Shown here in pieces: positions 1,320 to 16,278 of a stretch of DNA of 64,000 nt (positions are counted from its first letter, which is position 1; each line of letters begins with the position of its first letter). This DNA comes from Candidatus Bathyarchaeia archaeon (GTDB taxonomy: Bacteria; Patescibacteriota; Microgenomatia; PFEM01; JAFGMK01): assembly GCA_035529595.1 (NCBI GenBank), contig DATKWK010000035.1, forward strand, positions 113,067 through 177,066. Direction: 5' to 3'. A model generated the notes under the pieces. The model was not told the DNA's origin. It was given only the letters and a program-made list of their open reading frames with translations, and did not search any database. Position numbers and translations under genes: made by a program.

Positions 1320-2699
1320 TTGATGACAGTTTCCAATTCAAACAAACAGTACCCGCGTTTTTTTTATAAAAGCTTTAGTTTTAGAAAAAAAGGTAACAAC
1401 CTATTTTTATCTTTCGAGTTCTTCACTGAACCTAATCTTTATTTTAAACCGGAACTGGTGATTTTTAACCTTCCCCAATATACCCAGAACTTAGATAAGG
1501 ACTTACTTAACAATCTGGTTTTTCACCTGGGACTAATAGAAATCTTAAGCTACTGGAAGGCAACTTGCTCTCCAGAGATTATCATCGAAGCCGGTTACTT
1601 GAACAAAAAACAGATCAGTTGGTGGCACAATTTAATACTAAAAGGAATGGGTGAGTTTTTCTACACAAATCAGATTGATTTTAAACGGAAAAACTTTCTG
1701 ACGATAAAGAATGCTCACCTAAAAACTAAATTCACCCGTAAAACAGAAAAAGCCGGACTTAATTCCAAGACATTTCTGGTCCCGTTTGCCGGCGGAAAAG
1801 ATTCGATCGTCACCGCCCAACTACTAAAGAAAAACAAGGAAGATTTCAGACTTTTTTGTCTTAATCCAACCTCTTCATGCTTAAAAAGCATAGAATTAAT
1901 CACTACTAAGCAACCAATTATTGTTCAAAGAACAATTGATCCGCAGCTGCTGGAATTAAATAAAAGAGGTTATCTTAACGGCCATACCCCATTTACAGCC
2001 TATCTGTCTTTTTTAGGTGTTATCTGCACTGTCTTATTCGACTGCGGCACCGTAATTTTTTCCAATGAAAGAAGCGCTAATGAGGGAAATCTCATCTATC
2101 GCAGCCAGATGATCAACCATCAATATTCTAAAAGTTGGGAATTTGAAAAAAAGTTTTCTAGGTACTGCCGTAAATATCTAATTCAAGTTAATTATTTAAG
2201 TTTATTACGACCTCTTTATGAGATTCAAATCACCAAAATATTTTCACGGTATCCTCAATATTTTGGCCATTTCAAAAGCTGTAATGTTGGTCAAAAAGAA
2301 AACATTTGGTGCCAACACTGCGCGAAATGCTTAGCCACATTTACTCTTCTTTATCCCTTTATCAGCCAGAAAAAAATTATTGAAATCTTCGGTATTAATC
2401 TTCTTGACGAAAAAGATAACTTGCCTATTCTTAAAAAACTTCTCGGAACAGTAGGTTTTAAACCTTTTGAATGTGTTCCAACTAAAGAGGAAGTAAAAAG
2501 TGCTCTGTATTTAGCTTACAAAAAAGACCAGAAAAATAAATACAAGCTTTCGTTAGCTTTGAGATACTTTAAGTCACGATATTTTCCGGAATTCAAGTAT
2601 TTACAGAAGTCGGCAAAAGAAATATTAAATTCCTGGGGTAAAAACCATAGCCTTACGAAAAGATTGACAAAAGTTCTCAAAGAGGCAATGCGGGGATGA
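1320..2699 (+). CDS. PP-loop superfamily ATP pyrophosphatase-fold protein (AGGKDS P-loop at ~res 157, C-terminal CQHCAKC), candidate MurL-like ATP-dependent epimerase (hypothesis)
   Basis: 459-aa ORF, start TTG 1320 or more likely ATG 1323. 'LVPFAGGKDSIVTAQLL' matches the SGGxDS PP-loop. Stop overlaps the start of the downstream MurD-family gene (ATGA at 2696-2699). Confidence 0.5.
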   Translation: MMTVSNSNKQYPRFFYKSFSFRKKGNNLFLSFEFFTEPNLYFKPELVIFNLPQYTQNLDKDLLNNLVFHLGLIEILSYWKATCSPEIIIEAGYLNKKQISWWHNLILKGMGEFFYTNQIDFKRKNFLTIKNAHLKTKFTRKTEKAGLNSKTFLVPFAGGKDSIVTAQLLKKNKEDFRLFCLNPTSSCLKSIELITTKQPIIVQRTIDPQLLELNKRGYLNGHTPFTAYLSFLGVICTVLFDCGTVIFSNERSANEGNLIYRSQMINHQYSKSWEFEKKFSRYCRKYLIQVNYLSLLRPLYEIQITKIFSRYPQYFGHFKSCNVGQKENIWCQHCAKCLATFTLLYPFISQKKIIEIFGINLLDEKDNLPILKKLLGTVGFKPFECVPTKEEVKSALYLAYKKDQKNKYKLSLALRYFKSRYFPEFKYLQKSAKEILNSWGKNHSLTKRLTKVLKEAMRG

Positions 2700-4123
2700 A
2701 AAAAAGGGAGAAATTACTGCTTTTTTTAAAAGATAAGAAGATACTTATTCTCGGTTTTGGCAGTGAAGGCCAGGCTGCCTATACGTATCTTCGGCAAAAC
2801 TTTCCCCAAAAAATAATTGGGGTTGCTGATCGTCTGACAACAAAAAAGTTCGGAGAAAAACAACAAAATATTCTTAAAAGTGATAAGCAATTAAAAATTC
2901 ATTTAGGGAGGAAATACCTAGGTGATCTTAATAAATATGATCTGATCATTAAATCTCCGGGTGTCCCTAGTCATTTACCCCAAATAAAAACATTCATAAA
3001 AAGGGGCGGAAAGATTACTTCTCAAACAGAATTGCTGCTTGAATATTGCCCGGGTGAAATCGTCGGTGTCACCGGAACTAAAGGAAAGACAACGACGGCA
3101 AGTCTTATATATGAGATTCTTAGAACGAAATTTAGGGACGTCCGCCTGGTTGGAAATATCGGTCATACTTCACTGTCGTTTGTTAACCGGGCGAGAAAAA
3201 ATACTATCTTTGTCTTTGAATTTTCCAGTCATCAGCTAGTCAGTCTTAAGGTTAGTCCGCATGTCGCCGTTTTCCTAAATATCTTTCCGGAACATTTAGA
3301 TTATTACTCGAATTTCAGAAAATATTTACGGGCTAAAGAAAACATTACTCTCCATCAAAAAACGAATGATTATTTTATTTATAATCGGGCATTTCCGGAT
3401 ATCCGCCGAATCGCCAGCAAGACTCGGGCAAATAATATCCCTTTTTCTCTTGAAGCGCGAAAAGGCAGCATTTGTTTTATAAAAGATAATTATCTTTTAT
3501 ACCGAAAGGAAAGAATTATCAAGACAACTGAGGTTCCTCTTCTTGGCCGCTTCAATCTCCAGAACGTTATGCCGGCTGTAATCGTTGCCAAGTTATACCA
3601 TATTCCTAACCGGGAGATTGTTAAGACAATCGGTAACTTTCATCCCGTTAAACATCGGTTGGAAAAAGTCGGTACCTTTAATGAAATTATTTTCTACAAT
3701 GACTCGATCGCAACTATTCCTCAAGCAACTATTGCCGCCCTCGAGGCATTGGGTAATCAAGTGGAAACACTTATCTTAGGTGGATATGAGCGCCATTTAA
3801 ATTATCATCAACTGGCAACAAAAATTTTGGAGACCAAACTTAAAAACTTAATTCTGTTCCCCACGACAGGTAAAGAAATCTGGCGCAATATCAAGCTAGA
3901 AATCGGAGATAGAAAAAGCAACCTTCCTAATCATCTATTTACTAAAGAAATGGAGAAAGCCGTAGTCTGGGCTTACCGGTACACTAGTCCGGGTAAAATT
4001 TGCTTGCTTTCACCAGCCGCAGCCAGTTTCAATCTGTTTCGGGATTACCAGGAGAGAGGAAACCTTTTCAAGAAATATGTCAAAAAAATTGGGCAGGCCT
4101 CCTCAGATAACCGCCAACCATAG
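2696..4123 (+). CDS. murD: UDP-N-acetylmuramoyl-L-alanine--glutamate ligase (MurD family; possibly an L-Glu-adding MurD2)
   Basis: 475 aa. N-terminal Rossmann-like 'KILILGFGSEGQAAYTYL', 'IIKSPGVP', 'ITSQTELLL', P-loop 'GVTGTKGKTTTASLI', C-terminal 'LILGGYERHLNYHQLA'. This matches the MurD domain pattern rather than MurC/E/F. Confidence 0.8.
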   Translation: MKKREKLLLFLKDKKILILGFGSEGQAAYTYLRQNFPQKIIGVADRLTTKKFGEKQQNILKSDKQLKIHLGRKYLGDLNKYDLIIKSPGVPSHLPQIKTFIKRGGKITSQTELLLEYCPGEIVGVTGTKGKTTTASLIYEILRTKFRDVRLVGNIGHTSLSFVNRARKNTIFVFEFSSHQLVSLKVSPHVAVFLNIFPEHLDYYSNFRKYLRAKENITLHQKTNDYFIYNRAFPDIRRIASKTRANNIPFSLEARKGSICFIKDNYLLYRKERIIKTTEVPLLGRFNLQNVMPAVIVAKLYHIPNREIVKTIGNFHPVKHRLEKVGTFNEIIFYNDSIATIPQATIAALEALGNQVETLILGGYERHLNYHQLATKILETKLKNLILFPTTGKEIWRNIKLEIGDRKSNLPNHLFTKEMEKAVVWAYRYTSPGKICLLSPAAASFNLFRDYQERGNLFKKYVKKIGQASSDNRQP

Positions 4124-5134
4124 GCCAAAAAGCGCCAAAATCAAACCGGCCAACCAGGCGCGCATTACAATTTTTGGCTCCTCCCAACCTCGGTTTTGCA
4201 GCCATAAATGAAACGGAGCAACCGCAAAAGCTTTTTTCTTTAAAAAATTTTTAGATAATATTTGGATTAAGCTGGTAGAAATCTCCACAATGTAGAGACC
4301 GCCTATTATAGCCAAAGCGGCGATCTTTCCGATTAACAATCCAACTACGGCTAAGGTAGCCCCAAATGATAAAGCACCAACATCTCCCAGCCAGAGACGT
4401 GCTGGATAAACATTGAAGTATAAAAAAGCGATAATTGCCCCAAGCCAGATTGAAATAAATGCCGACAGGACAGTATCGATTACGGTATGCGAGAGAATCC
4501 AAAAAGCAAAAAGACAAATCATTAGCAGGCCGGTTGAAAGACCGTCCAAGCCGTCAGTAATGTTATAGGCATTAGCAAAAGATACGATTATGAAGGCACT
4601 TAGAGGCACAAACCATAGTCCGAGATCAATTTCTCCTAAAAAAGGAATATAGATAAAGTCGATTCCTAAATTAAAATATAAGAGTATGGCAACGACGATG
4701 GCTAAAATGCACTGGATGAGGAATTTTTCACGAAGTCTCAGACCGAAAAAACCGCTTTTTTCAAAACCAAAGAATTTATGGAAATCGTCATATAAGCCCA
4801 ATAGGCCAAACGATATAAAAGAAAAAAAAATAACGTTAAGTTCTTCTTTAATTGGATGAGCTGTTGAAATATAAACACCTAAAATATTTATCAGGGGAAA
4901 CAGAATAACGTAGAGAAGACATACCATAATGATAATTAATAGGCCTCCGCCGACCGGCGTCCCTTCCTTTTTACTATGAAGCCTATCAAAAATCTTTGCC
5001 CTCAAACCCAGGAAATCGCGAGTTATTTGTTTCTGCCGTAAAAATTTCAATCTGTATAGAAGATTGATAAAAGGCACAATCAAAACCGAAGTAATAATAA
5101 AGGAAAAGATTAAAAGCCCCAGATAAAGAGACAT
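4103..5134 (-). CDS. mraY: phospho-N-acetylmuramoyl-pentapeptide transferase
   Basis: 343 aa polytopic membrane protein with MraY motifs 'KKEGTPVGGG', 'NAYNITDGLDGL', 'YPARLWLGDVGALSFGA'. Confidence 0.9.
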   Translation of the reverse strand: MSLYLGLLIFSFIITSVLIVPFINLLYRLKFLRQKQITRDFLGLRAKIFDRLHSKKEGTPVGGGLLIIIMVCLLYVILFPLINILGVYISTAHPIKEELNVIFFSFISFGLLGLYDDFHKFFGFEKSGFFGLRLREKFLIQCILAIVVAILLYFNLGIDFIYIPFLGEIDLGLWFVPLSAFIIVSFANAYNITDGLDGLSTGLLMICLFAFWILSHTVIDTVLSAFISIWLGAIIAFLYFNVYPARLWLGDVGALSFGATLAVVGLLIGKIAALAIIGGLYIVEISTSLIQILSKNFLKKKAFAVAPFHLWLQNRGWEEPKIVMRAWLAGLILALFGLWLAVI

Positions 5135-5607: not shown

Positions 5608-6627
5608 TTAGAGATGACGAAAGACCCGCCTAAGAGTTTCAAAACAATATGTAACCCCGTAACGAATAGAGAGCGGCAGATCCTGGGCATGAAGCCAGTT
5701 AACCCGCTGACCTCCGAAACCTTTTTTAAAGGTTGTTACGCCGGCAAAACGATGACGAGGATTATCATTAGGCGCAATGCCCCAAAAATTATAAATGCGG
5801 CAGCCTCTTTTTTTGGCCTCTTTGATTGCCTCCCACTGAATCAGGTGGGAAGCAGGAACCCGGCTGGCTCCATGGGTTGAACCCGAATAGTGGTATACCG
5901 CCGTATCACCGTAAAATATTATCATTGAGACAGCGATAATCTTTTTTTGGTATTCAGCTAAAAGTAAAAGCGCTTGATTATCTCCGGTAAAAACCTCAAA
6001 TTGTTTTCTTAAAAATTCGTACGAAAAAGGGACGAATTTATGCCGCTTGGCCGTATCCAGTTGAAAACGATACAATATCTTGATATCTCTTATATCTCGA
6101 CTAAAAAGTATGCGCACCTTGCCCTTGGTCGCCTTCCTGATACAGTGACGAGTGGTTTTTCTCATGCCGGCTAACAATTCACTTTCAGGAGAACTAAGAT
6201 CAAGTTGCCAAGTCGTTTCCGCATGCATATGCATTGGCGCATTTAGAAAGCCAGCTTTCTTAAAGAACCGGCGGTTTTGGTCGTTATCAGAAATCGAAGG
6301 CCTGACTCTGATAAAAACTGCCTTTTCCAGTTTCCCCAAATTCTTAAGATAACTGACAAACTCTTTAAAATAATTTTGATTTTGCCAATCAAATAAAGGC
6401 CCGCCGGGACAAGAAAGATAAGTACCCCTTTTGGCTTGTTCTTTTATTAATAAAGACACCCCGACCAGCCTTTTTTTCTCGAAAAAACCTAAACGAAATA
6501 TTTTTTCTCCCAAGGCTTGGTAAAACTCTCCCCAGCTCCAAGATTGAAGGAAAACATTGGGGTTATGACTCAAGACAAATCTATCCCAAATATTTTTATT
6601 ATCGACCGGTTTTAACTCCATAATCAA
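5608..6627 (-). CDS. FemAB-family aminoacyl-tRNA-dependent peptidoglycan aminoacyltransferase (FemX/MurM-like)
   Basis: 339 aa. N-terminal 'NVFLQSWSWGEF' is typical of FemABX, and the size and GNAT-like architecture are consistent. Confidence 0.7.
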   Translation of the reverse strand: MIMELKPVDNKNIWDRFVLSHNPNVFLQSWSWGEFYQALGEKIFRLGFFEKKRLVGVSLLIKEQAKRGTYLSCPGGPLFDWQNQNYFKEFVSYLKNLGKLEKAVFIRVRPSISDNDQNRRFFKKAGFLNAPMHMHAETTWQLDLSSPESELLAGMRKTTRHCIRKATKGKVRILFSRDIRDIKILYRFQLDTAKRHKFVPFSYEFLRKQFEVFTGDNQALLLLAEYQKKIIAVSMIIFYGDTAVYHYSGSTHGASRVPASHLIQWEAIKEAKKRGCRIYNFWGIAPNDNPRHRFAGVTTFKKGFGGQRVNWLHAQDLPLSIRYGVTYCFETLRRVFRHL

Positions 6628-7867
6628 AAAATTGTCTGATTACTTTAATAACTTTTTTTGCCTCTCTTAAGCCGATTTTCGGATGAGTTGGTAAATTAAC
6701 AACCAGAGGAGAAGTCTTTTCCGCTACCGGACAAGTTTTGGGATCATAACCAATCACCGAATAATTTACTCCCGGTGGTGAAATTGACGGATAATACCAA
6801 TTATTTAAAATCACTTCTCTAATCTTTGCAAATCGGTATAATTTCTGGGCCTTTTCGGTTTTAATCGTAAACCGCAGCAAAGGAAAAACATTTGCCCCTT
6901 CCTGATAGTTGGGTAACTCAATCGGTAAATTCTCTAAACCGGCTGCATAAAGCTTGACTATTCTTTGGCGGTTTTCATTAAACTGTGAAAGTTTAGCTAA
7001 TTGAAAGCACGCCAACAAGGCTAAACTATTTGGGATCCGGCCGATAAAATAAGAAGGTAAAATGCCTCTTTGCTCGCAATCTTGCACCGGATTGATAAAT
7101 ATTCTCAGCTTCTGAAAAAAGACTAAAAGAATTTTTCCTAACGAAAAAAAATTGTAGACCGACAAAATAAGACTAAATAAAACCAGGTAAAGCAATTGAC
7201 GAAAAACAAAAAAACGGGTTGGGTAAGAAAGCGATCGATGATATTTTTTTAGCTTATTAAATAGTTTTTGATCTTTGGTAATGACCATTCCCCCGAAAAC
7301 GGAAGAAATGACTTTGTCTCTGCCAAAACTGAAAAAAGCCGCCTCTCCAAAAGTACCCAATTTTTTTCCAACGAAGGAAGCACCAATCACGTGAGCGCAA
7401 TCTTCAATCATCTTCAGTCCATATTTAGCGGCAATTTTGACAATTTCGTTGACCGGGGCCGGGTAACCGAAAGTATGTTGAACGATAATTGCTTTACTTT
7501 TAGGAGTAATTTTCCTGGCTAGATCATCCGGGTCCATATTGAATGAATCCTTGTCAATATCAACATAAACCGGTTTTGCTCCACATTTAATAACGCTGTT
7601 GGCAACTACCACGCAGGTAAACGCTTGAAGTAAAACTTCATCCCCTTTGGCAATACCTAAACAATTAAGAATCGCCAGCAAGCCGGTCCGGCCGTTAAGA
7701 AAACTAATCGTTCGAAAACCGGGATAGATATTTTCAAAGTCGGTTTCAAGTTGTTTGGTCCCTTTACCATGAACCCAATTTTTCGGTTGGAAAATTAACT
7801 TTAAAGCTTTCAGTATATCGGCAGCGTTGTTATTAGGCAACAAAGAGACGGAAATCGGCTTAAACAT
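6599..7867 (-). CDS. DegT/DnrJ/EryC1/StrS-family PLP-dependent aminotransferase with a hydrophobic insertion
   Basis: 422 aa. 'EDCAHVIGASFVGKKLGTFGEAAFFSFGRDKVI' (FSF..K PLP-lysine region). A ~60-aa insertion 'RFFVFRQLLYLVLFSLILSVYNFFSLGKILLVFFQKL' looks membrane-embedded. Confidence 0.65.
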   Translation of the reverse strand: MFKPISVSLLPNNNAADILKALKLIFQPKNWVHGKGTKQLETDFENIYPGFRTISFLNGRTGLLAILNCLGIAKGDEVLLQAFTCVVVANSVIKCGAKPVYVDIDKDSFNMDPDDLARKITPKSKAIIVQHTFGYPAPVNEIVKIAAKYGLKMIEDCAHVIGASFVGKKLGTFGEAAFFSFGRDKVISSVFGGMVITKDQKLFNKLKKYHRSLSYPTRFFVFRQLLYLVLFSLILSVYNFFSLGKILLVFFQKLRIFINPVQDCEQRGILPSYFIGRIPNSLALLACFQLAKLSQFNENRQRIVKLYAAGLENLPIELPNYQEGANVFPLLRFTIKTEKAQKLYRFAKIREVILNNWYYPSISPPGVNYSVIGYDPKTCPVAEKTSPLVVNLPTHPKIGLREAKKVIKVIRQFFDYGVKTGR

Positions 7868-7870
7868 GAA

Positions 7871-9586
7871 TCAATTTCCCTCTGCTTTCTGAAAAACTTT
7901 TAGGTATTTATTAGCCTCTCTTCCTTCAAAAAGAACAACGTCATCTTTTTTCAGTAAAGAAAATATCTTTTGACGAAGATACCTTGGCGAACCGACTAGT
8001 GAAATTTTTTTTCGTTCTTCTTGATTAATACCAGCCAAAATTTCACGAAAATAATTTCGATTGGTTAAGAAAATTTGATCACAAATCTTAGTCGCTTTTC
8101 TAAAAACACGTTTGTGCTCAATCCAAGTTGCCTTACCCAGTTCGATCATTGGTTGAAAGATTAAAAACCTCTGTCCCAAGAATAGCTTTAAGTAATTAAG
8201 TGCCGCTAAAACACCTTCCGGATTACTATTGTATGTATCATTAATCAAAGTCGAATGATTCGGACCCTCAACCGAATTCATAGTTCCTGGCAATGACTTG
8301 ATCTTATCAATTTCTTGAGAAATTTCTTTCAAAGTTAATCCTAAATTAGATGCTATCGCAGTTGCCGCTAACAGGTTACTGATGTTTTGTTTACCCAATA
8401 GTCTGGCTTGAAATGTTTGTTTTTCTTCTCCTTTGGTAACTTGAAAATTAAGTTTATCCTTGAAAACCTTTATTTTAGAAGCATATAAATCAGTTTGGTA
8501 ATTTTTAGTTGAATAAAGTATTTTTTTTAAGCGGGTCAATTGAGAAAATTTTAAACATAATTTATCATCTGCATTTAAGATCACTAGACCGTTTCCCGGT
8601 AAACTATCAATCAACTCAAATTTTGCTTCCACTAAGTTTTCAAGTTTACCAAAAAGTGACAGATGTTGAGTTCCTAAGCCGGTGATTACACCAATTTCAG
8701 GTTTAACAACATCGCAAATCGTTTTGATTTCGCCTTTTTTATAGGCACCCATTTCAACAATATAAAATTGATCATTTCCGTCAAGTTCCAACAATATTTG
8801 CCTTGCTATACCAATTGCCGTATTATGATGAACATGCGTTGCCAAGATTTTAAATCGGCTATTTAAGATCGATGCAAGAAACTCTTTAGTGCTGGTTTTT
8901 CCGAAACTTCCGGTAATCCCGATTACTTTCAAGTCAGGATAAGTTTTTATTTTCTTAATTGCTTTTCTGATAATTTCCCTTTTAAAAAATAAGCTCGGTA
9001 AAGCAAGGGAAGCGACTGAAATAGCCACCCAAACCGCTATTAAAATGTCAGCCTCAAGGAAAACCTGTAGAACTCCGTCTGCGTAACGATTTATTTGGGC
9101 AACTTTAAAGCGGAAAAGCAAAAAACAAACTTGAAGCGAGACAGACTCAAGAGTAATTAATAAAGCTTTAAGAGTAAACTTAGGTCTTCTGAATTGATGA
9201 CGGAAGACCCGGCCTAAAATATAAAACATCTCACTGTAAAAAACTCCGCCCCACAGAACCCAATGGATATACCTGGCTTTGGCAAAAATTATAAAAACAT
9301 TCCCGTCGATAAAAAGGAATAACCAAACTAAAATCTTAAGAAGCAAATGAATATTTAACAAATCCCTTTTGCCTTGATAAGTTTTAAAGTAGTCCTTCAG
9401 CCGATCGAAACGGTACTCCTTTAACTGCCAAAGATAAAGAAAAGAAAAAAGATTACCCAAAACGACAACCACATAATAGACAGAAAACAGATCTCCCAAT
9501 AAAAAAGTAAGCAACTTGTTGCCGATGGGTAAAAGAAAAGTCACTATAAAGAACAGAATTGATGCGAAAAAAATAAAATATTCCAT
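7871..9586 (-). CDS. murF: MurF-like UDP-MurNAc-tripeptide--D-Ala-D-Ala ligase fused to an N-terminal ~200-aa polytopic membrane domain
   Basis: 571 aa. Residues ~215-571 carry MurF signatures 'IGITGSFGKTSTKEF', 'HNTAIGIA', 'EMGAYKKGEIK', 'ITGLGTQHLS', 'LINDTYNSNPEGVLAAL'. Residues 1-200 are 5-6 hydrophobic helices replacing canonical MurF domain 1. Confidence 0.75.
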   Translation of the reverse strand: MEYFIFFASILFFIVTFLLPIGNKLLTFLLGDLFSVYYVVVVLGNLFSFLYLWQLKEYRFDRLKDYFKTYQGKRDLLNIHLLLKILVWLFLFIDGNVFIIFAKARYIHWVLWGGVFYSEMFYILGRVFRHQFRRPKFTLKALLITLESVSLQVCFLLFRFKVAQINRYADGVLQVFLEADILIAVWVAISVASLALPSLFFKREIIRKAIKKIKTYPDLKVIGITGSFGKTSTKEFLASILNSRFKILATHVHHNTAIGIARQILLELDGNDQFYIVEMGAYKKGEIKTICDVVKPEIGVITGLGTQHLSLFGKLENLVEAKFELIDSLPGNGLVILNADDKLCLKFSQLTRLKKILYSTKNYQTDLYASKIKVFKDKLNFQVTKGEEKQTFQARLLGKQNISNLLAATAIASNLGLTLKEISQEIDKIKSLPGTMNSVEGPNHSTLINDTYNSNPEGVLAALNYLKLFLGQRFLIFQPMIELGKATWIEHKRVFRKATKICDQIFLTNRNYFREILAGINQEERKKISLVGSPRYLRQKIFSLLKKDDVVLFEGREANKYLKVFQKAEGN

Positions 9587-9589
9587 TTT

Positions 9590-10408
9590 TTAATTTGTTA
9601 GAAAAGGATTAATTTGTTCAGACAGAGCTTTTGGCTTTTCGTAGGGTAATTTATGGGAAGCGCCCGGAATGACTACCAAGAGAGATTTTTTGATCATCTT
9701 ATGAAGATAACGAGCTTGGAGAAGAGGTGTTACCCGATCATCTTCTCCCCAGACAATTAAAGTCGGCGACTTAATTTTTTTTATAATCTTTTCTTGATTA
9801 GCAGAAACTACTCTCGTAAACACTTTTTTCATGATACCTTGTGATTGATAATAATCTTTCTCCCGAGCAAAAAAATATAGATATCTTGTAAATTGACGTC
9901 TAAATAGAAAAAAAGGCGGCAGAAGAAAAATGACTTTTGCCATTTTAGCAACCAGCCAAAATGAAAATCGCTTCAAGGTTTTTTTTCGCAACACCGGCAC
10001 TCCGGTTAAAACCAGTTTCTCAACTTTTTCAGGATAAGTGACAGCGATCTCCAGCGCAACTCGACCACCAAAGGAATGACCAAGAAGGCAGAACTTTTCT
10101 AAAGCGATTGCCTGACAAAACTGAGTAACAAAATGGGCGTAGTCTTTTATCCCCCAGGAGAAATCAGGCAGGGATGTTTTTCCAAATCCAGGCATATCAG
10201 GAGCGAATGTATGAAAATTCCGAGCCAATATTTTTTGCAGCTGGGAAAAAACCGATCCCGACTTATCCCAACCATGAAGAAGCAGCAGCGGTTTTCCGCT
10301 TCCTTCCTCATGATAATAGACCTTAAGATCCTGAAGTTGAATTTTTTTTAGCTTCACCTTCCGTTTATTAAACTGATTTTTTGCCATTAACTTTCCTGAT
10401 TTCAGCAC
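9590..10408 (-). CDS. alpha/beta-fold hydrolase
   Basis: 272 aa. 'LLLLHGW' oxyanion region and nucleophile elbow 'GHSFGG'. Start may be the internal Met at 10387. Confidence 0.65.
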   Translation of the reverse strand: MLKSGKLMAKNQFNKRKVKLKKIQLQDLKVYYHEEGSGKPLLLLHGWDKSGSVFSQLQKILARNFHTFAPDMPGFGKTSLPDFSWGIKDYAHFVTQFCQAIALEKFCLLGHSFGGRVALEIAVTYPEKVEKLVLTGVPVLRKKTLKRFSFWLVAKMAKVIFLLPPFFLFRRQFTRYLYFFAREKDYYQSQGIMKKVFTRVVSANQEKIIKKIKSPTLIVWGEDDRVTPLLQARYLHKMIKKSLLVVIPGASHKLPYEKPKALSEQINPFLTN

Positions 10409-11715: not shown

Positions 11716-12783
11716 TCAAAAAATATCCGGGTAATTATTTCTCGCATATGATTGGACAAAAGGATAAATGAATTTCTGTAGCCAGTTAAAATTGGACATA
11801 GATAAAATCAATCGCCTCATCAATTTTGCCTTTCTGATCGGAAAGACATAGTCATAGCTTCCAAACTTTCCCCACAGATACCGGTTTACCAGGCTTGCCT
11901 TTATCTTACCGTCAAGATGCCTTTTAATAAGCGCTTTATAGTCACTGTTTTCAATAATGCTTTTAGCCGCCAGATAGCCTGATCCAATGGCATACCTGAT
12001 CCCGAAACCCCAAAAAAAATCCTGCAAGCCGGCTGCCTCGCCAACAAATAATTTTCTCCCTTCTTGAAGTTTTGGATTTATCAAGAAGCTGGCTATTCCA
12101 GAAAACCGTCTTACCGACCGTAACTTAAGATCGAATTTTTTGATGAAAAAACTCTTTGTTTTCTGTAAGTAGTCGCTGATATTAATCTCTTTTATATCTT
12201 TAATCGCAGCGACACAAAGACATCCATAATGGTCTGCAATATGAAGATAACCATACCCGCCCGGAGCAAACCGGTCATTGAAAATCACCACTGATTTGTC
12301 CTTCGAATCCGTTTGAAAAGTGATTCCCTTAGCTAAGCCAAAAACATGAGACAAATTGGGCCCGGTCGCAATAATGTCGGCTTTATTCAAAGCTAATGAT
12401 TGATTAAAGTGAATATTTACACCTAAATCCAGCGCCTGCTCTTTCAAGCTATAATCAAGACTGCCAAGAAAATTCCCTCGTTTTACTAAATAAACAAGAA
12501 CTCCCGAACCGGAAAGCCGATTCCAAAACTGACTATTAGTAAGCATCAGGTCTGAAACCGGTTTATGGTAAAAGCGGTGATAAATACTCGCTTTCTTTAG
12601 GAATTCTAAGACATCTTCTTTTTCCGTCCAATTCTCTAGACCCTGAAAATCACCGTGAAACCTCACTCCCACATCAGATGCCTGCTCATAGATATCAACC
12701 TGATAATCGTGTTTGGCCAAGTTGATCGCGGCTGTCATACCGGCAAGTCCGGCACCTAAAATGATAATTTTTCTTCTTTTCAT
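11716..12783 (-). CDS. FAD/NAD(P)-binding oxidoreductase (geranylgeranyl-reductase-like family)
   Basis: 355 aa. N-terminal dinucleotide-binding 'KIIILGAGLAGMTAAINLA...DIYEQ'. Confidence 0.6.
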   Translation of the reverse strand: MKRRKIIILGAGLAGMTAAINLAKHDYQVDIYEQASDVGVRFHGDFQGLENWTEKEDVLEFLKKASIYHRFYHKPVSDLMLTNSQFWNRLSGSGVLVYLVKRGNFLGSLDYSLKEQALDLGVNIHFNQSLALNKADIIATGPNLSHVFGLAKGITFQTDSKDKSVVIFNDRFAPGGYGYLHIADHYGCLCVAAIKDIKEINISDYLQKTKSFFIKKFDLKLRSVRRFSGIASFLINPKLQEGRKLFVGEAAGLQDFFWGFGIRYAIGSGYLAAKSIIENSDYKALIKRHLDGKIKASLVNRYLWGKFGSYDYVFPIRKAKLMRRLILSMSNFNWLQKFIYPFVQSYARNNYPDIF

Positions 12784-14229
12784 TTATTTAGCAAGTTTTT
12801 TAAGTTGGCGGACAATCATCTTGGCCAGTTGACTGCTATTGCCTGCTCCAAAAACGATGACTACGTCTTCTGAACGACTGTTTTTGGCAATAAAATCAGC
12901 TACTTTTTTGAAGTCTTCGATACAGCTTGCCTTTGGTAAGCCGATTTTAGCTGCCAATTCTTGGGCACTTAGACCGGAAGTTATTTTCTCTCTCCCCCAG
13001 AAAATTTCAGTAACTATTACCTGATTTGCCTTCTTCAGAGCGGTAACAAATTCATTCGTAAAAAACCGGAATCGCGTTTGGTGAGGCTCCAGTACTGCCC
13101 AAATAAACGACTTGGGATATCTTTGTTTAACTGCTTCTATTGTCGCTGCAATCTGAGTCGGATGATGGCCATAATCGTCAATTACGATCCTCCTGGCTTC
13201 TTTCCCAACAATTTCAAATCGTCTCTTAACGCCTGAAAAACTGTTAAAAACGGTTTTTAGCGTTTCACTATTAATGTTAAGAAACCAACCGCAAGCATAA
13301 GCCGCTAGAGCATTGTAAACATTGTGCCTGCCCGGAATTCTCAATTGGAAATCTTCTTTAATGGTTTTTTTTCCATGATCAAAAACAATCGAAAACCTGG
13401 TTGAAAATTTTTCTTGCCGGTTAATTATTCCCCGGAAATCTTTAGCAAAAGGAAAATCAAACGCCGAATCGAGATGAAAAGCGGTTATTTGAACCCTCTC
13501 CCGGTTTAATCTTAACTGGTTTTTGACTAAAATCTGCCGAATATTGTCATCATCACTATTAACAATAAGGATTTTGGGTTGATCCAGACGAAAGATGAAC
13601 CGGGTAAAACTTTTTCTTAGCTGGTCAAGGTTTGAAAAAAATTCAGGGTGATCCATTTCAATATTGGTGATAACGGCCATCTTGGGAGAATAGTTAAGAA
13701 AATTATTATAGTACTCATCAGCTTCACAAATAAAATAATTTGACTCGCCGCAGCGGACATTTGCTTGCCACACCGGAACGACACCGCCAACCAGCACAGT
13801 AGGATCAAGTTTTCCCGCCTCTAAAATCTGGCCGACTAAAGCGGAAGTAGTTGTCTTTCCGTGGGTTCCGGCAATGCAGACAAGATATTTATCTTTCTGA
13901 AGATACCGACCTATAAACTGCTGCCACGTTAATATAATTCCTCGTCTTTTTGCTTCCCGAATTTCAGGATGACGACTATTGACAATCAACACCGCCGGCG
14001 AAGTTACCAAAAGATCAGCTTTTCTCAAATGGCTGATATTATGACCGCCATGAATAGGGATCTTTAATTTCCTCAGTTGGTCAGTTGACGACGTGTTGGG
14101 ATTAAGATCACAGCCACTAACTTGAAAACCCTCGTACCTGGCAAGATAAGCGGCACCTGAACAACCACTGCCGCTAATACCCATAAAATGAATCCTCTTA
14201 ATCTCTTTTGCTGTTTTTCTCTTTTTCAC
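12784..14229 (-). CDS. murC: UDP-N-acetylmuramate--L-alanine ligase
   Basis: 481 aa. 'IHFMGISGSGCSGAAYLA' (MurC N-domain) and P-loop 'CIAGTHGKTTTSALV'. Confidence 0.85.
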   Translation of the reverse strand: MKKRKTAKEIKRIHFMGISGSGCSGAAYLARYEGFQVSGCDLNPNTSSTDQLRKLKIPIHGGHNISHLRKADLLVTSPAVLIVNSRHPEIREAKRRGIILTWQQFIGRYLQKDKYLVCIAGTHGKTTTSALVGQILEAGKLDPTVLVGGVVPVWQANVRCGESNYFICEADEYYNNFLNYSPKMAVITNIEMDHPEFFSNLDQLRKSFTRFIFRLDQPKILIVNSDDDNIRQILVKNQLRLNRERVQITAFHLDSAFDFPFAKDFRGIINRQEKFSTRFSIVFDHGKKTIKEDFQLRIPGRHNVYNALAAYACGWFLNINSETLKTVFNSFSGVKRRFEIVGKEARRIVIDDYGHHPTQIAATIEAVKQRYPKSFIWAVLEPHQTRFRFFTNEFVTALKKANQVIVTEIFWGREKITSGLSAQELAAKIGLPKASCIEDFKKVADFIAKNSRSEDVVIVFGAGNSSQLAKMIVRQLKKLAK

Positions 14230-14969
14230 AAGTTGTCTCCGATAGCGGCCACCGTTAAAAATTCGCCGAATGGACGGCCGTCTTTTCGAAAAGAAAAGAA
14301 TTCATCATTTCGACAGGCAGTACAGATACCGGCCGGTTCTATATTCTTTACCGGTATCCCGGATGTACGCAACTGCCAGATTAAAGGAACAGAGAGATCA
14401 AGATAATAAGCAGCATCCCTTATGTTTATCATGCCTGGCAAGTCACCAAAATTAGCCCGAAATTGTCTGGCTCTTTGTTTATTTATCCGGTAACAACAAG
14501 GCCCGATATGAGGCCCAATTCCAACCACAATATCTCCGACATGTCCTCCTAATTCTTTCAGCTTATCAACTAATTGACAGACAATATTATTAATAATTCC
14601 TTTCCATCCAGCGTGAGCAACACCTAAAACTATCTCCTGAGGATCATAAGCCACCAGAGGCAGGCAATCGGCGGTTTTAATTGCCAAAATTAGATTTTTT
14701 TCCTGAGTAACCAGACCATCTACTTTTTTAATCTCTGTCCCTTTATGATTAATCCAGGCAATTTCCACCCGGTTGCCATGAACCTGTTCCATAGTGACTA
14801 AATCATCAATCCTCAGGCCAATTTTACCTAAGAACTTTTGGATATTTTGTCTTTGTTTTACCTTGTCGGCCTCTGTCATATCTCCCATTGACCGGGAAGA
14901 AATTGCCTGAGTTAAATTTTCTTGTTGACTTAAGAGCTTGAAATAATAAAGATGTTCTTTCTTAAGCAT
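14226..14969 (-). CDS. pgeF: peptidoglycan editing factor PgeF / YfiH (DUF152 laccase-domain protein)
   Basis: 247 aa. 'KTADCLPL', 'VAHAGWKG' and 'GICTAC' match the conserved Cys/His triad of YfiH. Confidence 0.8.
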   Translation of the reverse strand: MLKKEHLYYFKLLSQQENLTQAISSRSMGDMTEADKVKQRQNIQKFLGKIGLRIDDLVTMEQVHGNRVEIAWINHKGTEIKKVDGLVTQEKNLILAIKTADCLPLVAYDPQEIVLGVAHAGWKGIINNIVCQLVDKLKELGGHVGDIVVGIGPHIGPCCYRINKQRARQFRANFGDLPGMINIRDAAYYLDLSVPLIWQLRTSGIPVKNIEPAGICTACRNDEFFSFRKDGRPFGEFLTVAAIGDNL

Positions 14970-16278
14970 TGCCCAACCTTTCCCGTAAGGCTGTTTTTAT
15001 TTCTTCATGCTCACTCCAGGGTTTTTCAATTCGCCCATAACATAGGCTCGCTTCATGTCCTTTACCGAAAAAGGCCACGATATCGTTCTTGCAAGCCAAT
15101 TTATTAATTGCAAACCTGATTGCTTCTCTTCTGTCAGATATCCGAAAATAAACACCTTTCAGCTTGCTAATCTGAGACTCGTTAATACCTGTCGGACTTT
15201 GATAAGTCAAATGACCTTTAAGGCATCCTTGAGCAATCTGATCAATAATTTTTTCCACGTCTTCGGTTCTTGGGTCTTCAGCGGTTAAAATCACAACATC
15301 GGCTATTCGAGCTGCAATCTCGCCCATCAGCGGTCTTTTATAAAAATCACGTAAGCCCGCACAGCCAAAAACGGCTATTATTCTTCTCTCGTTAGATTTT
15401 TCCTTCAAAGCAGTCAGTGCTTGTTGAAGACCATTAGGGGTATGGGCAAAATCAACAAAAACTTGGAAGTCTTGCCCTAAATCTATAATTTCCATCCGGC
15501 CGGTTACTCCAGTAAAAGCAGCCAGGCTTTTTCTGATTGTTTTATCGTCTATTTCTAAAGTTTTGGCAACGGCAATTGCCGCCAAACAGTTATACCGGTT
15601 ATACTCGCCGATCAGAGGGGTTTTAAACCTATAGGTGTTAGGAGTAAATTCGGCTTTCTTCTTAACCGCGTAAGTAACCAGCCGTGAGTTTCTTGATCTA
15701 GCCGTGTTTAGATAACTAAACGAACGATCATCTCTATTTAATACGACTACTTTGGTTTTTTTGAATAGCTTCCCCTTTACTTCTAAATATTTTGAATAAG
15801 TACCGTGATAATCCAAGTGTTCAGAAGTGACATTAGTAATTACCGCCATCTCAAATCTAATCCCCAGGAAGCGATTTTGTGCCAATCCATGGGAAGTACA
15901 TTCAAGTACTAAATATTTGATTTTTTGGTCAGCGATGTTCCGTAAAAGTCGCTGCAAAAAAAAAGGTTGGGGCGAGGTAACGTGAAGACCGATAGGGATT
16001 TTTTCTTGGCCGATTTTGGCACAGACTGTCGAAATAAGGGCCGCTTTTTTGCCGGCATGCAGTAAAATTTTATAGATCAATGTCGAAGTGGTTGTTTTAC
16101 CATCGGTTCCGGTAACGCCAATTATATAAAGTTTCCGGGAAGGAAACCGGAAATATAAATTGGCCGCTATCGCTTTCGGACCATGCCAAAAAAGATTAAC
16201 CAGCCAATCAGGGAAAAGTAACCGAAGATTCTCTCCCAGCTTACTATAACGAATCTTAGTCAAAATTCCTGAAAACAT
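14962..16278 (-). CDS. murE: UDP-N-acetylmuramoyl-L-alanyl-D-glutamate--diamino acid ligase (MurE); 'EDPR' suggests a DAP-type substrate
   Basis: 438 aa. 'IIGVTGTDGKTTTSTL', 'LECTSHGL', 'DFAHTPNGL', 'GCAGLRDFYKRP', and 'LTAEDPRTED' aligning to the E. coli DNPR motif. Confidence 0.85.
   Translation of the reverse strand: MFSGILTKIRYSKLGENLRLLFPDWLVNLFWHGPKAIAANLYFRFPSRKLYIIGVTGTDGKTTTSTLIYKILLHAGKKAALISTVCAKIGQEKIPIGLHVTSPQPFFLQRLLRNIADQKIKYLVLECTSHGLAQNRFLGIRFEMAVITNVTSEHLDYHGTYSKYLEVKGKLFKKTKVVVLNRDDRSFSYLNTARSRNSRLVTYAVKKKAEFTPNTYRFKTPLIGEYNRYNCLAAIAVAKTLEIDDKTIRKSLAAFTGVTGRMEIIDLGQDFQVFVDFAHTPNGLQQALTALKEKSNERRIIAVFGCAGLRDFYKRPLMGEIAARIADVVILTAEDPRTEDVEKIIDQIAQGCLKGHLTYQSPTGINESQISKLKGVYFRISDRREAIRFAINKLACKNDIVAFFGKGHEASLCYGRIEKPWSEHEEIKTALRERLGNA

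What the first reader, a model, noticed from the sequence alone, without database searches (positions are those of the whole stretch)
7871..9586. MurF-type ligase with a ~200-aa N-terminal polytopic membrane domain replacing canonical domain 1
- The C-terminal ~360 residues are unambiguously MurF-like: P-loop GITGSFGKTSTKE, EMGAYKKGEIK, ITGLGTQHLS, LINDTYNSNP.
- The P-loop sits at residue ~222 instead of ~100.
- It is preceded by 5-6 hydrophobic helices rather than the soluble UDP-binding N-domain.
- Cytoplasmic Mur ligases are normally soluble.
- A membrane-integrated MurF could act at the membrane, be tethered to MraY (two genes downstream), or act on a lipid-linked substrate.
Basis: partly seen in the sequence, partly recalled or inferred. 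Interest (0 to 1): 0.55.

Follow-up and report, generated by a model that had tools for sequence, protein, structure and literature searches.

The report
Membrane-embedded MurF cell-wall ligase
This gene encodes the enzyme that finishes the peptide of the bacterial cell-wall precursor, but its usual soluble nucleotide-binding head is replaced by a five-helix membrane domain of unknown fold, a design shared by over a thousand protein clusters in the ultra-small Patescibacteria (CPR) and apparently not described before.

Summary
ORF 7871-9586 (-) encodes 571 aa. Residues 218-559 are a MurF-type ligase: Mur_ligase_M and Mur_ligase_C, best NCBIfam model murF, best fold matches MurF crystal structures. 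The uridine-binding domain 1 is absent. Residues 1-217 are instead a polytopic membrane domain.

It is not a mis-assembly. The same N-domain sits in one ORF with the ligase in 80/80 fetched genomic loci. A pattern scan found it in 372 GTDB species genomes, and a profile search found 1,245 clusters at 50% identity. Most hits are Patescibacteria; a few are high-GC MAGs labelled Anaerolineae.

The family core has five helices (N-out, C-in); this protein may carry a sixth. The invariant residues (WQLKEYRxDR, G72, RxPxFTxK) lie on the cytoplasmic loops, where domain 1 would sit. AlphaFold2 confidence is high (pLDDT 92.8). The N-domain has no Pfam family and no PDB fold match.

The gene lies in the dcw cluster inside a conserved cassette: alpha/beta-hydrolase, TM-MurF, DegT-like, FemAB-like. 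MurE in this lineage also lacks domain 1.

The most likely reading is the housekeeping MurF, built into the membrane. Whether its substrate is UDP-linked or lipid-linked is unresolved. I found no literature on this.

The parts
7871..9586 (-). Whole ORF, 571 aa: membrane-anchored MurF (TM-MurF)
   Evidence: ORF listing. An identical protein is on record in public assemblies on contigs up to 846,852 bp, named MurF by NCBI. AF2 mean pLDDT 92.8, pTM 0.89.
9515..9586 (-). Residues 1-24: an extra N-terminal hydrophobic helix ('TM0'), lineage-specific or an artefact of start-codon choice
   Evidence: Absent from nearly all aligned homologues. pLDDT about 60. TTG at codon 25 would give the family-typical N-terminus. 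The ATG lies 3 nt after the hydrolase stop codon (TAA AAA ATG), a tight operon spacing comparable to the stop/start overlap seen in homologous loci.
8987..9514 (-). Residues 25-200: conserved five-helix membrane domain (N-out, C-in) that takes the place of MurF domain 1
   Evidence: Hydropathy, AF2 helices and positive-inside statistics over 109 homologues. Profile search found 1,245 clusters at E<=1e-3. No Pfam family and no PDB fold match (best E 3.7).
9401..9430 (-). Residues 53-62, WQLKEYRFDR: invariant or near-invariant motif at the cytoplasmic end of TM1
   Evidence: Q54, K56, Y58 and R62 are invariant; W53, L55 and E57 are at least 90% conserved in 109 sequences. The motif is present in 115 of 120 top homologues, roughly 140-185 aa before the P-loop.
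9167..9190 (-). Residues 133-140, RRPKFTLK: second conserved cytoplasmic loop motif (R/K-x-P-x-F-T-x-K)
   Evidence: P135 is invariant; T138 and K140 are at least 98% conserved.
8936..8986 (-). Residues 201-217: basic helix continuous with TM5 that leads into the ligase domain
   Evidence: AF2 predicts a single helix over 183-214. The segment carries 6.3 Lys+Arg on average; A209 and K212 are conserved.
8351..8917 (-). Residues 224-412: Mur ligase central ATP-binding domain, with P-loop GITGSFGKTS at 8891-8920
   Evidence: PF08245, E 1.5e-38. Aligned to E. coli and A. baumannii MurF.
7922..8275 (-). Residues 438-555: Mur ligase C-terminal domain (DTYNSNP and MIELG...H motifs)
   Evidence: PF02875, E 1.2e-9. 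Motifs align with MurF DDSYNAN and MAELG...H.
9590..10408 (-). Alpha/beta-hydrolase gene immediately upstream; a cassette partner
   Evidence: Pfam Abhydrolase_1/6. Adjacent upstream in 68 of 74 evaluable loci. Ser/Asp/His triad invariant in 70/70. One fused hydrolase-TM-MurF protein, P0018.
6599..7867 (-). DegT/DnrJ/EryC1-like PLP enzyme with a conserved hydrophobic insertion of about 50-70 aa (residues ~210-283); a cassette partner
   Evidence: The Pfam match is split in two. The insertion is seen relative to solved DegT enzymes. Adjacent downstream in 52 of 61 loci. PLP Lys185 and Asp156 invariant in 54/54. Fused to TM-MurF in L033.
5608..6627 (-). FemAB-family transferase; a cassette partner
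   Evidence: Pfam FemAB, E 1.3e-39. Downstream in 52 of 56 evaluable loci.
4103..5134 (-). MraY, the next enzyme of the pathway, four genes downstream
   Evidence: Pfam Glycos_transf_4; phmmer to Aquifex MraY, E 4e-42.
14962..16278 (-). MurE, 438 aa, which also lacks the N-terminal uridine-binding domain
   Evidence: TIGR01085 match starts at profile position 71. Residue 36 aligns with T. maritima MurE residue 89. All 120 best homologues are 385-464 aa and lack PF01225.

Best explanation
This is the organism's housekeeping MurF, the ATP-dependent enzyme that adds D-Ala-D-Ala to the MurNAc-tripeptide precursor. It is a lineage-wide variant built into the cytoplasmic membrane.

Shown:
- The two catalytic domains are MurF-like and intact.
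- The uridine-binding domain 1 is missing. In its place is a conserved five-helix membrane domain (six helices here if the ATG start is right).
- The last helix of that domain continues as a rigid basic helix straight into the ATP-binding domain, so the ligase hangs on the cytoplasmic face.

Inferred:
- Every invariant residue of the membrane domain lies on its two cytoplasmic loops or at the membrane-cytosol interface (W53 Q54 K56 E57 Y58 R62, G72, P135 T138 K140). These occupy the sequence position of domain 1.
- These aromatic and basic residues therefore most likely form the pocket that holds the distal end of the substrate, the UDP of UDP-MurNAc-tripeptide.
- The reaction would thus occur at the membrane surface, releasing UDP-MurNAc-pentapeptide next to MraY.
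- The enzyme works within a conserved operon cassette with an alpha/beta-hydrolase, a DegT-like PLP enzyme and a FemAB-type transferase. Their roles are unknown but are probably precursor tailoring.
For: MurF identity:
- Best NCBIfam model is murF, 240.7 bits, against about 99 bits for the best single-function model of another Mur ligase (MurE).
- Best PDB sequence and fold matches are MurF.
- The C-terminal motifs DxYNxNP and ELG...H are retained.
- The gene sits in the dcw cluster: mraZ-mraW-ftsL-ftsI-murE-...-murC-murA-...-mraY-...-ftsW-murG-ftsA. No other MurF-like ORF occurs in the 64-kb window or in the cluster of a relative. In L062 it is directly followed by mraY.

Membrane domain:
- Hydropathy, AF2 (pLDDT 92.8 full length, 89.5 for the N-domain alone) and the positive-inside rule across 109 homologues all agree.

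Conservation:
- One ORF in 80/80 loci; 372 GTDB species; 1,245 clusters at 50% identity.
- Short hits are truncated fragments ending in TM5, the linker or the P-loop, not stand-alone domains.
- Invariant residues are confined to cytoplasmic loops.
- The N-domain persists in loci that lack the hydrolase, DegT and FemAB genes, such as L062, L028 and L067. It is therefore not merely a dock for those partners.

Role of domain 1:
- In ordinary MurF it holds the uridine-ribose pocket (review PMC11569785).
Against: - No biochemical data exist.
- I could not inspect model coordinates, so the proximity of the conserved loops to the active site rests on sequence order, not on measurement.
- The murF model score is below NCBI's trusted cut-off (240.7 vs 288.6). 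This is expected when domain 1 is missing, but it means family membership is not certified.
- I could not scan the whole genome for a second, canonical murF.
- Five conserved helices, with conserved acidic residues inside them (E119 77%, D180 81%), are more than an anchor needs.
- MurE of the same lineage has also lost domain 1 without gaining any obvious substitute. This sits uneasily with simple UDP recognition and fits the lipid-substrate rival equally well.
Confidence: 0.6

Rival explanations
1. Lipid-linked substrate. The enzyme adds D-Ala-D-Ala to undecaprenyl-pyrophosphoryl-MurNAc-tripeptide (a lipid I or lipid II analogue), not to a UDP-linked precursor. The membrane domain would bind the polyprenyl-pyrophosphate, and MraY would act earlier in the pathway than in textbook bacteria.
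For: - The UDP-binding domain is gone from both MurF and MurE across the lineage.
- The invariant basic and aromatic residues sit at the membrane-cytosol interface, where a lipid pyrophosphate would lie.
- Conserved acidic residues lie inside the helices.
- The domain is far larger than an anchor needs to be.
- MraY of these organisms has a degenerate HHH motif, APxHL(W/Y).
- Precedent from general knowledge, not tested here: MurT, a Mur-ligase homologue without domain 1, acts on lipid II.
Against: - MurC and MurD keep their normal N-terminal domains.
- MurE has no membrane segment, and its short N-terminal extension is no more amphipathic than shuffled controls.
- The ligase shows no affinity to MurT models (45 bits against a cut-off of 800).
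- Soluble enzymes such as MurT and FemX act on lipid II without any membrane domain, so a membrane domain is neither necessary for nor diagnostic of a lipid substrate.
Confidence: 0.2
2. Scaffold only. The membrane domain takes no part in catalysis. It tethers MurF to MraY, MurG or the flippase, and/or docks the cassette enzymes (hydrolase, DegT-like) into a membrane metabolon.
For: - The cassette is tightly conserved: 68/74, 52/61 and 52/56.
- Hydrolase-MurF and MurF-DegT fusions occasionally occur.
- The DegT-like partner has a conserved hydrophobic insertion that could contact the membrane or the N-domain.
Against: - The N-domain is retained where the cassette partners are absent (L062, L028, L030, L067).
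- Loss of domain 1 leaves a substrate-binding function to be filled.
- The hydrolase lid is not convincingly membrane-spanning (median maximum hydropathy 1.09).
Confidence: 0.12
3. Not a true MurF. It is a MurF-derived paralogue that ligates a different amine, for example a product of the neighbouring DegT-like or FemAB-like enzymes, onto the stem peptide or another carboxylate.
For: - The score is below the trusted murF cut-off.
- It is invariably associated with three uncharacterised enzymes.
- No Ddl or alanine racemase was found among the window ORFs scanned with Pfam or NCBIfam (35 of 55, including all those of Ddl- or Alr-like length).
Against: - The C-terminal domain motifs match MurF.
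- It occupies the murF slot of the dcw cluster, and no other MurF candidate is present there.
- The low score is accounted for by the missing ~72 N-terminal profile positions.
Confidence: 0.07
4. Artefact. The N-terminal 200 aa belong to a separate gene that was joined to murF by mis-assembly, a frameshift or a gene-calling error.
For: None, beyond uncertainty over the first 24 residues.
Against: - The same single ORF occurs in 80/80 independent genomes and more than 1,000 clusters.
- An identical protein is on record in the public collection under several sources, on contigs up to 846,852 bp.
- AF2 predicts one continuous helix joining the two parts.
Confidence: 0.01

Closest known systems
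Canonical MurF (UDP-MurNAc-tripeptide:D-Ala-D-Ala ligase; e.g. E. coli 1GG4, A. baumannii 4QF5, P. aeruginosa 4CVM)
   Same: - The central ATP-binding and C-terminal domains, P-loop and C-terminal motifs match: 23-25% identity and TM-score 0.62-0.76 on the target.
- It holds the same position in the dcw cluster.
   Different: - It lacks the ~90-aa soluble domain 1 that holds the uridine-ribose pocket.
- It has instead an integral membrane domain of about 190 aa.
- Canonical MurF is a soluble cytoplasmic protein.
MurT of the MurT/GatD lipid II amidotransferase
   Same: It is a Mur-ligase-family protein without the N-terminal UDP-binding domain, acting at the membrane-linked stage of the pathway (general knowledge).
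   Different: - There is no sequence affinity: 45 bits against a cut-off of 800.
- MurT is soluble, needs GatD and amidates D-Glu.
- No GatD-like neighbour is present here.
Fused Mur enzymes (MurE-MurF fusion 8F5D; MurC-Ddl; MurF-Alr)
   Same: These are other cases where MurF is physically coupled to a neighbouring pathway step.
   Different: - Those fusions join soluble enzymes and keep domain 1.
- Here the added module is a membrane domain with no detectable enzyme homology.
MraY (phospho-MurNAc-pentapeptide translocase)
   Same: - It is an integral membrane enzyme of the next step, encoded in the same operon.
- A short look-alike motif, RGWxxPK(I/F)(V/T)x(R/K)A, precedes a TM helix in both.
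   Different: Profile-profile comparison gives probability 1% or less (E 0.056), so there is no evidence of homology.

Membership tests
MurF (Mur ligase family, TIGR01143) | Central ATP-binding domain with a P-loop (PF08245) | tested here: met
   E 1.5e-38, residues 224-412.
MurF (Mur ligase family, TIGR01143) | C-terminal Mur ligase domain (PF02875) with the DxYNANP and ELG...H motifs | tested here: met
   E 1.2e-9; motifs aligned to E. coli and A. baumannii MurF.
MurF (Mur ligase family, TIGR01143) | Whole-protein score above NCBIfam's curated cut-off for murF | tested here: not met
   240.7 bits against a cut-off of 288.6. The match covers profile positions 73-409 only. murF is still the best model by a wide margin.
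MurF (Mur ligase family, TIGR01143) | N-terminal domain 1 (uridine-binding; PF01225) | tested here: not met
   No PF01225 hit. Alignments to MurF start at E. coli residue 95. Foldseek aligns only ~373 columns.
MurF (Mur ligase family, TIGR01143) | Location in the dcw cell-wall cluster upstream of mraY, as the only MurF-like gene there | tested here: met
   The whole genome was not scanned.
MurF (Mur ligase family, TIGR01143) | Catalyses ATP-dependent addition of D-Ala-D-Ala to UDP-MurNAc-tripeptide | not testable with these tools
   Needs an enzyme assay or complementation.
MurF (Mur ligase family, TIGR01143) | Soluble cytoplasmic protein | tested here: not met
   Five to six predicted TM helices; the positive-inside pattern is conserved in 109 homologues.
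MurT (lipid II isoglutaminyl synthase subunit) | Match to the MurT equivalog models | tested here: not met
   NF052464 at 45.5 bits and NF045635 at 26.7 bits, both against cut-offs of 800.
Any described membrane-protein family (for the N-domain) | Sequence or fold match to a curated family or solved structure | tested here: not met
   Pfam on 31 members at E<=1 finds no shared family. Foldseek against PDB gives best E 3.7. hhalign against DAGK and MraY gives probability 1% or less.

The most novel reading that the evidence does not exclude
In Patescibacteria, and in some Chloroflexota, the late steps of peptidoglycan stem-peptide assembly are membrane-bound. MurE and MurF have both shed the UDP-binding domain. 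The membrane-embedded MurF would act on an undecaprenyl-pyrophosphate-linked MurNAc-tripeptide, so MraY would act before MurF. It would work as part of a membrane complex with a hydrolase, a PLP enzyme and a FemAB transferase. This would be a re-ordered version of a pathway regarded as universal among wall-bearing bacteria.
Probability: 0.15. Interest if true: 0.9.

Novelty: new variant of a known kind. Interest (0 to 1): 0.66.

Why it matters
- MurC to MurF are textbook soluble cytoplasmic enzymes and long-standing antibiotic targets.
- An integral-membrane MurF that lacks the uridine pocket, conserved across a radiation making up a large share of bacterial diversity, would show that the cytoplasmic and membrane stages of wall-precursor synthesis can be physically merged.
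- It would define a new membrane domain with an invariant motif and no known fold.
- Inhibitors aimed at the MurF uridine pocket should not bind these organisms' enzyme.
- It offers a directly testable question, UDP-linked or lipid-linked substrate, about how ultra-small episymbiotic bacteria build their walls.
- The conserved four-gene cassette and the domain-1-less MurE suggest further unrecognised steps in the same pathway.

Tried and rejected
1. The word-indexed search with the N-domain alone found nothing. The full-length search and a profile search were needed.
2. Looked for homology of the N-domain to known families. Pfam at E<=1 on 31 members gave only scattered single chance hits. Foldseek against PDB gave nothing below E 3.7.
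3. Tested whether the N-domain derives from MraY or DAGK by profile-profile comparison. Probability was 1% or less, and only a 16-41 column look-alike around RGWxxPK appeared. Rejected as evidence.
4. Tested whether the short N-terminal extension of MurE is an amphipathic membrane anchor. Its hydrophobic moment equals that of shuffled controls (0.529 vs 0.527). No support.
5. Tested whether the hydrolase and DegT partners carry true TM hairpins. The DegT insertion is conserved and moderately hydrophobic (median maximum KD19 1.49). The hydrolase lid mostly is not (1.09). Inconclusive.
6. Looked for stand-alone N-domain proteins. All 45 short hits end inside TM5, the linker or the ligase, or carry frameshifted tails, so they are fragments.
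7. Looked for Ddl or alanine racemase in the window. Pfam or NCBIfam was run on 35 of the 55 ORFs, including all those of Ddl- or Alr-like length, and found neither. The rest of the window is mainly a glycosyltransferase and radical-SAM cluster. This says nothing about the rest of the genome.
8. Nine literature searches on membrane, transmembrane or CPR MurF returned nothing relevant.
9. The mis-assembly or frameshift explanation is rejected.
Full report
**The object.** On the minus strand, 7871..9586 is an uninterrupted ORF of 571 codons.
- Pfam finds Mur_ligase_M (224-412, E 1.5e-38) and Mur_ligase_C (438-555) but not the Mur ligase N-domain PF01225.
- Among NCBIfam models, murF (TIGR01143) is the best at 240.7 bits. 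The best single-function model of another Mur ligase, a MurE model, scores about 99 bits.
- The murF match covers only profile positions 73-409 of 418, and the score is below the curated cut-off of 288.6.
- phmmer against PDB aligns query residue 214 with E. coli MurF residue 95.
- Foldseek of the AlphaFold2 model finds MurF structures first (4QF5, E 5e-29), over about 373 columns, which is domains 2 and 3 only.
- The ligase part is therefore MurF-like and complete, and the uridine-binding domain 1 is absent. A review states that the MurF N-terminal domain carries the uridine-ribose pocket (PMC11569785).

**The N-terminal 217 residues.**
- Kyte-Doolittle windows of at least 1.6 occur around residues 10-22, 33-44, 84-95, 148-151 and 180-193. 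A weaker stretch lies at 106-126.
- AlphaFold2 with a 109-sequence alignment gives mean pLDDT 92.8 and pTM 0.89. Helices are at 2-18 (low confidence), 23-55, 60-67, 70-76, 79-94, 102-128, 139-166 and 171-214. The last helix runs without a break into the first strand of the ligase domain.
- The N-domain modelled alone has pLDDT 89.5.
- Over 109 homologues, the segments 53-78, 127-140 and 201-217 carry 5.7, 4.6 and 6.3 Lys+Arg on average. The short connections 98-103 and 167-172 carry about 0.35.
- This is the positive-inside pattern of a five-helix domain with its N-terminus outside and the ligase in the cytoplasm.
- Residues 1-24 of the window protein form an extra helix that nearly all homologues lack. 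It may be lineage-specific.
- Alternatively the real start may be the TTG at codon 25. That would give the family-typical N-terminus.
- In favour of the ATG, it lies 3 nt after the upstream gene's stop codon. This tight spacing is comparable to the stop/start overlap seen in homologous loci.

**Not an artefact, and not rare.**
- The full-length protein finds 2,560 relatives at E<=1e-10. Almost all of the best 120 are 523-570 aa long and cover 89-95% of the query. Those with names are called MurF and come from Patescibacteria such as Pacebacteria and Gottesmanbacteria.
- The motif WQLKEY is present in 115 of these 120, roughly 140-185 residues before the P-loop.
- A pattern scan of one genome per GTDB species found 372 genomes encoding a relative of the N-domain.
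- In all 80 loci fetched, the motif lies in the same stop-to-stop ORF as a protein of about 500-600 aa. The P-loop pattern was recognised in most of these.
- The loci span Microgenomates, many Parcubacteria groups, Gracilibacteria, Peribacteria and others. Four contigs are labelled Anaerolineae and have 51-64% GC, against a median of 38%.
- A profile of the N-domain against 1.84 billion representative proteins finds 1,245 clusters at E<=1e-3 and 866 at E<=1e-10. The domain is at the N-terminus in all 150 best hits listed.
- The 45 short hits end inside TM5, the linker or the ligase, or have frameshifted tails. They are fragments, not free-standing domains.

**What is conserved in the membrane domain.**
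- Invariant in 109 sequences: Q54, K56, Y58, R62 and P135.
- At least 90% conserved: L52, W53, L55, E57, G72, T138 and K140.
- At 77-89%: H66 (Tyr in the window protein), T69, K84, E119 and D180.
- The invariant and near-invariant residues form two motifs, WQLKEY(R/H)x(D/G)R at the cytoplasmic end of TM1 and (R/K)xPxFTxK before TM4. Both lie on the cytoplasmic face.
- E119 and D180 lie inside helices.
- No Pfam family matches and no solved structure resembles the fold (best Foldseek E 3.7).
- Profile comparison with the neighbouring membrane proteins DAGK and MraY shows no homology, with probability 1% or less.

**Genomic setting.**
- The gene lies in a complete division/cell-wall cluster: mraZ, mraW, ftsL, ftsI, murE, a Cu-oxidase_4 (YfiH-type) gene, murC, a flavoprotein, murA, an alpha/beta-hydrolase, TM-murF, a DegT-like gene, a FemAB-like gene, dagK and mraY. 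After these, murD and murL lie on the other strand, followed by ftsW, murG and ftsA.
- No other MurF-like ORF is in the window or in the equivalent cluster of a relative.
- Four genes form a cassette that keeps its order and strand across the 80 loci.
- The hydrolase is directly upstream in 68 of 74 evaluable loci.
- The DegT-like gene is directly downstream in 52 of 61. The FemAB-like gene is directly downstream without it in 4 of 61.
- The FemAB-like gene lies somewhere downstream in 52 of 56.
- In Parcubacteria-type contigs the cassette sits outside the dcw cluster, between serS and ftsQ, and is still intact.
- One protein fuses the hydrolase to TM-MurF (P0018). One ORF fuses TM-MurF to the DegT-like enzyme (L033).
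- The partners look catalytically competent. The Ser-Asp-His triad is invariant in 70/70 hydrolases. The PLP lysine and aspartate are invariant in 54/54 DegT-like proteins.
- The DegT-like protein carries a conserved, moderately hydrophobic insertion of about 50-70 residues that solved DegT enzymes lack.
- The N-domain is retained in loci without these partners (L062, L028, L030, L067).

**A related observation that bears on mechanism.**
- MurE of this organism (14962..16278) also lacks domain 1. Its match to the murE model starts at profile position 71, and residue 36 aligns with residue 89 of T. maritima MurE.
- All 120 best MurE relatives are 385-464 aa and lack PF01225, with the P-loop at a median of residue 50.
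- MurC and MurD keep their N-terminal domains.
- MurE's short N-terminal extension is basic but no more amphipathic than shuffled sequence.

**Interpretation.**
- Shown: this is a MurF-clade ligase in the murF slot of the cell-wall operon. It has intact catalytic domains. A conserved polytopic membrane domain stands where domain 1 should be.
- Inferred: the invariant aromatic and basic residues on the cytoplasmic loops take over the job of domain 1, holding the distal end of the MurNAc-tripeptide substrate. Catalysis would then happen at the membrane surface next to MraY.
- I put 0.6 on this reading, with UDP-MurNAc-tripeptide as the substrate.
- The main rival (0.2) is that the distal end is an undecaprenyl pyrophosphate rather than UDP.
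- For the rival: both late ligases have lost domain 1, the conserved residues sit at the interface, the helices carry acidic residues, and MraY has an altered HHH motif.
- Against the rival: MurE has no membrane association, and soluble enzymes are known to handle lipid II.
- A scaffold-only role (0.12) is weakened because the domain persists without the cassette partners.
- A non-MurF paralogue (0.07) is weakened by the conserved C-terminal motifs and the operon position.
- An assembly artefact is excluded.

**Comparison with what is known.**
- It works like MurF and descends from MurF. It fails two features of the family as described: domain 1 and solubility. It also misses NCBI's cut-off for that reason.
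- It resembles MurT only in lacking domain 1, with no sequence affinity.
- Known MurF fusions (MurE-MurF, MurF-Alr) join soluble enzymes and keep domain 1.
- Nine full-text searches found no description of a membrane-embedded MurF or of this cassette. Subscription-only literature was not searchable.
- I rate it a new variant of a known kind. It carries an undescribed membrane domain and is widespread in Patescibacteria.

**Limits.**
- I could not read model coordinates, run complex predictions or scan whole genomes.
- I therefore could not establish the position of the conserved loops relative to the active site.
- The absence of a second murF elsewhere in the genome remains untested.
- The source of D-Ala-D-Ala (Ddl, Alr) also remains untested.

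Noticed in passing
window 5608-10408 (-); loci L001-L084: A four-gene cassette is conserved in order and strand across Patescibacteria: alpha/beta-hydrolase, TM-MurF, DegT-like PLP enzyme, FemAB-like transferase. Counts are 68/74, 52/61 and 52/56 loci. It also occurs outside the dcw cluster. All catalytic residues are invariant. Its function is unknown.
   Followed up: partly
window 6599-7867 (-): The cassette's DegT-like protein has a conserved, moderately hydrophobic insertion of about 50-70 aa (QQLLHP...Y...GK...EKxG...PNALA) that solved DegT enzymes lack. An ordinary uninterrupted DegT gene lies at 52188-53501.
   Followed up: partly
window 14962-16278 (-): MurE is only 438 aa and lacks the N-terminal uridine-binding domain. 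All 120 best homologues (385-464 aa) share this, so it is a lineage-wide trait.
   Followed up: partly
window 11716-12783 (-): A geranylgeranyl-reductase-like flavoprotein sits between murC and murA, exactly where relatives (L009, L046, L082) have a canonical MurB. It may be a non-orthologous replacement of MurB. No canonical MurB was seen among the window ORFs scanned.
   Followed up: partly
window 1320-2699 (+) and 2651-4120 (+): murD is followed on the same strand by a gene whose precomputed Pfam hits are MurL_N and MurL_epimerase_C. This suggests the L-Glu-then-epimerise (MurD2/MurL) route to D-Glu. The local Pfam copy did not reproduce the hit.
   Followed up: no
window 4103-5134 (-); alignment A3: MraY of this organism and seven relatives reads APxHL(W/Y)LQ where Aquifex MraY has the APFHHHLE loop-E motif. 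Only the first His of the HHH triad is kept.
   Followed up: partly
window 9584-9592 (-): The hydrolase ORF and the TM-MurF ORF are in the same reading frame, separated only by TAA AAA before the ATG. A database protein (P0018, 738 aa, single member, 3.5-kb contig) is a hydrolase-TM-MurF fusion. It could be real or a sequencing error.
   Followed up: partly
L030, L032, L033, L035: High-GC contigs (51-64%) labelled Anaerolineae also encode TM-MurF. L033 has a 1,075-aa ORF that fuses TM-MurF to the DegT-like enzyme. This bears on the Patescibacteria-Chloroflexota relationship or on horizontal transfer.
   Followed up: partly
window 14226-14969 (-): A Cu-oxidase_4 (YfiH-type) gene lies between murE and murC, and the same is seen in L082.
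   Followed up: no
window 25000-62000 (-): A long run of glycosyltransferases lies here: GT1/GT4/GT2 enzymes, a nucleotidyltransferase, a Wzx-like flippase, three radical-SAM (two of them SPASM) enzymes, a methyltransferase and an epimerase. Nearly every gene in the 64-kb window is on the minus strand, and the GC skew is steadily negative.
   Followed up: no
N-domain residues 106-146 vs MraY residues ~271-331: There is a short resemblance: a TM helix with a conserved Glu, then RGWxxPK(F/I)(T/V)x(K/R)A before the next helix. hhalign gives E 0.056 and probability 1%, so it is not significant.
   Followed up: yes
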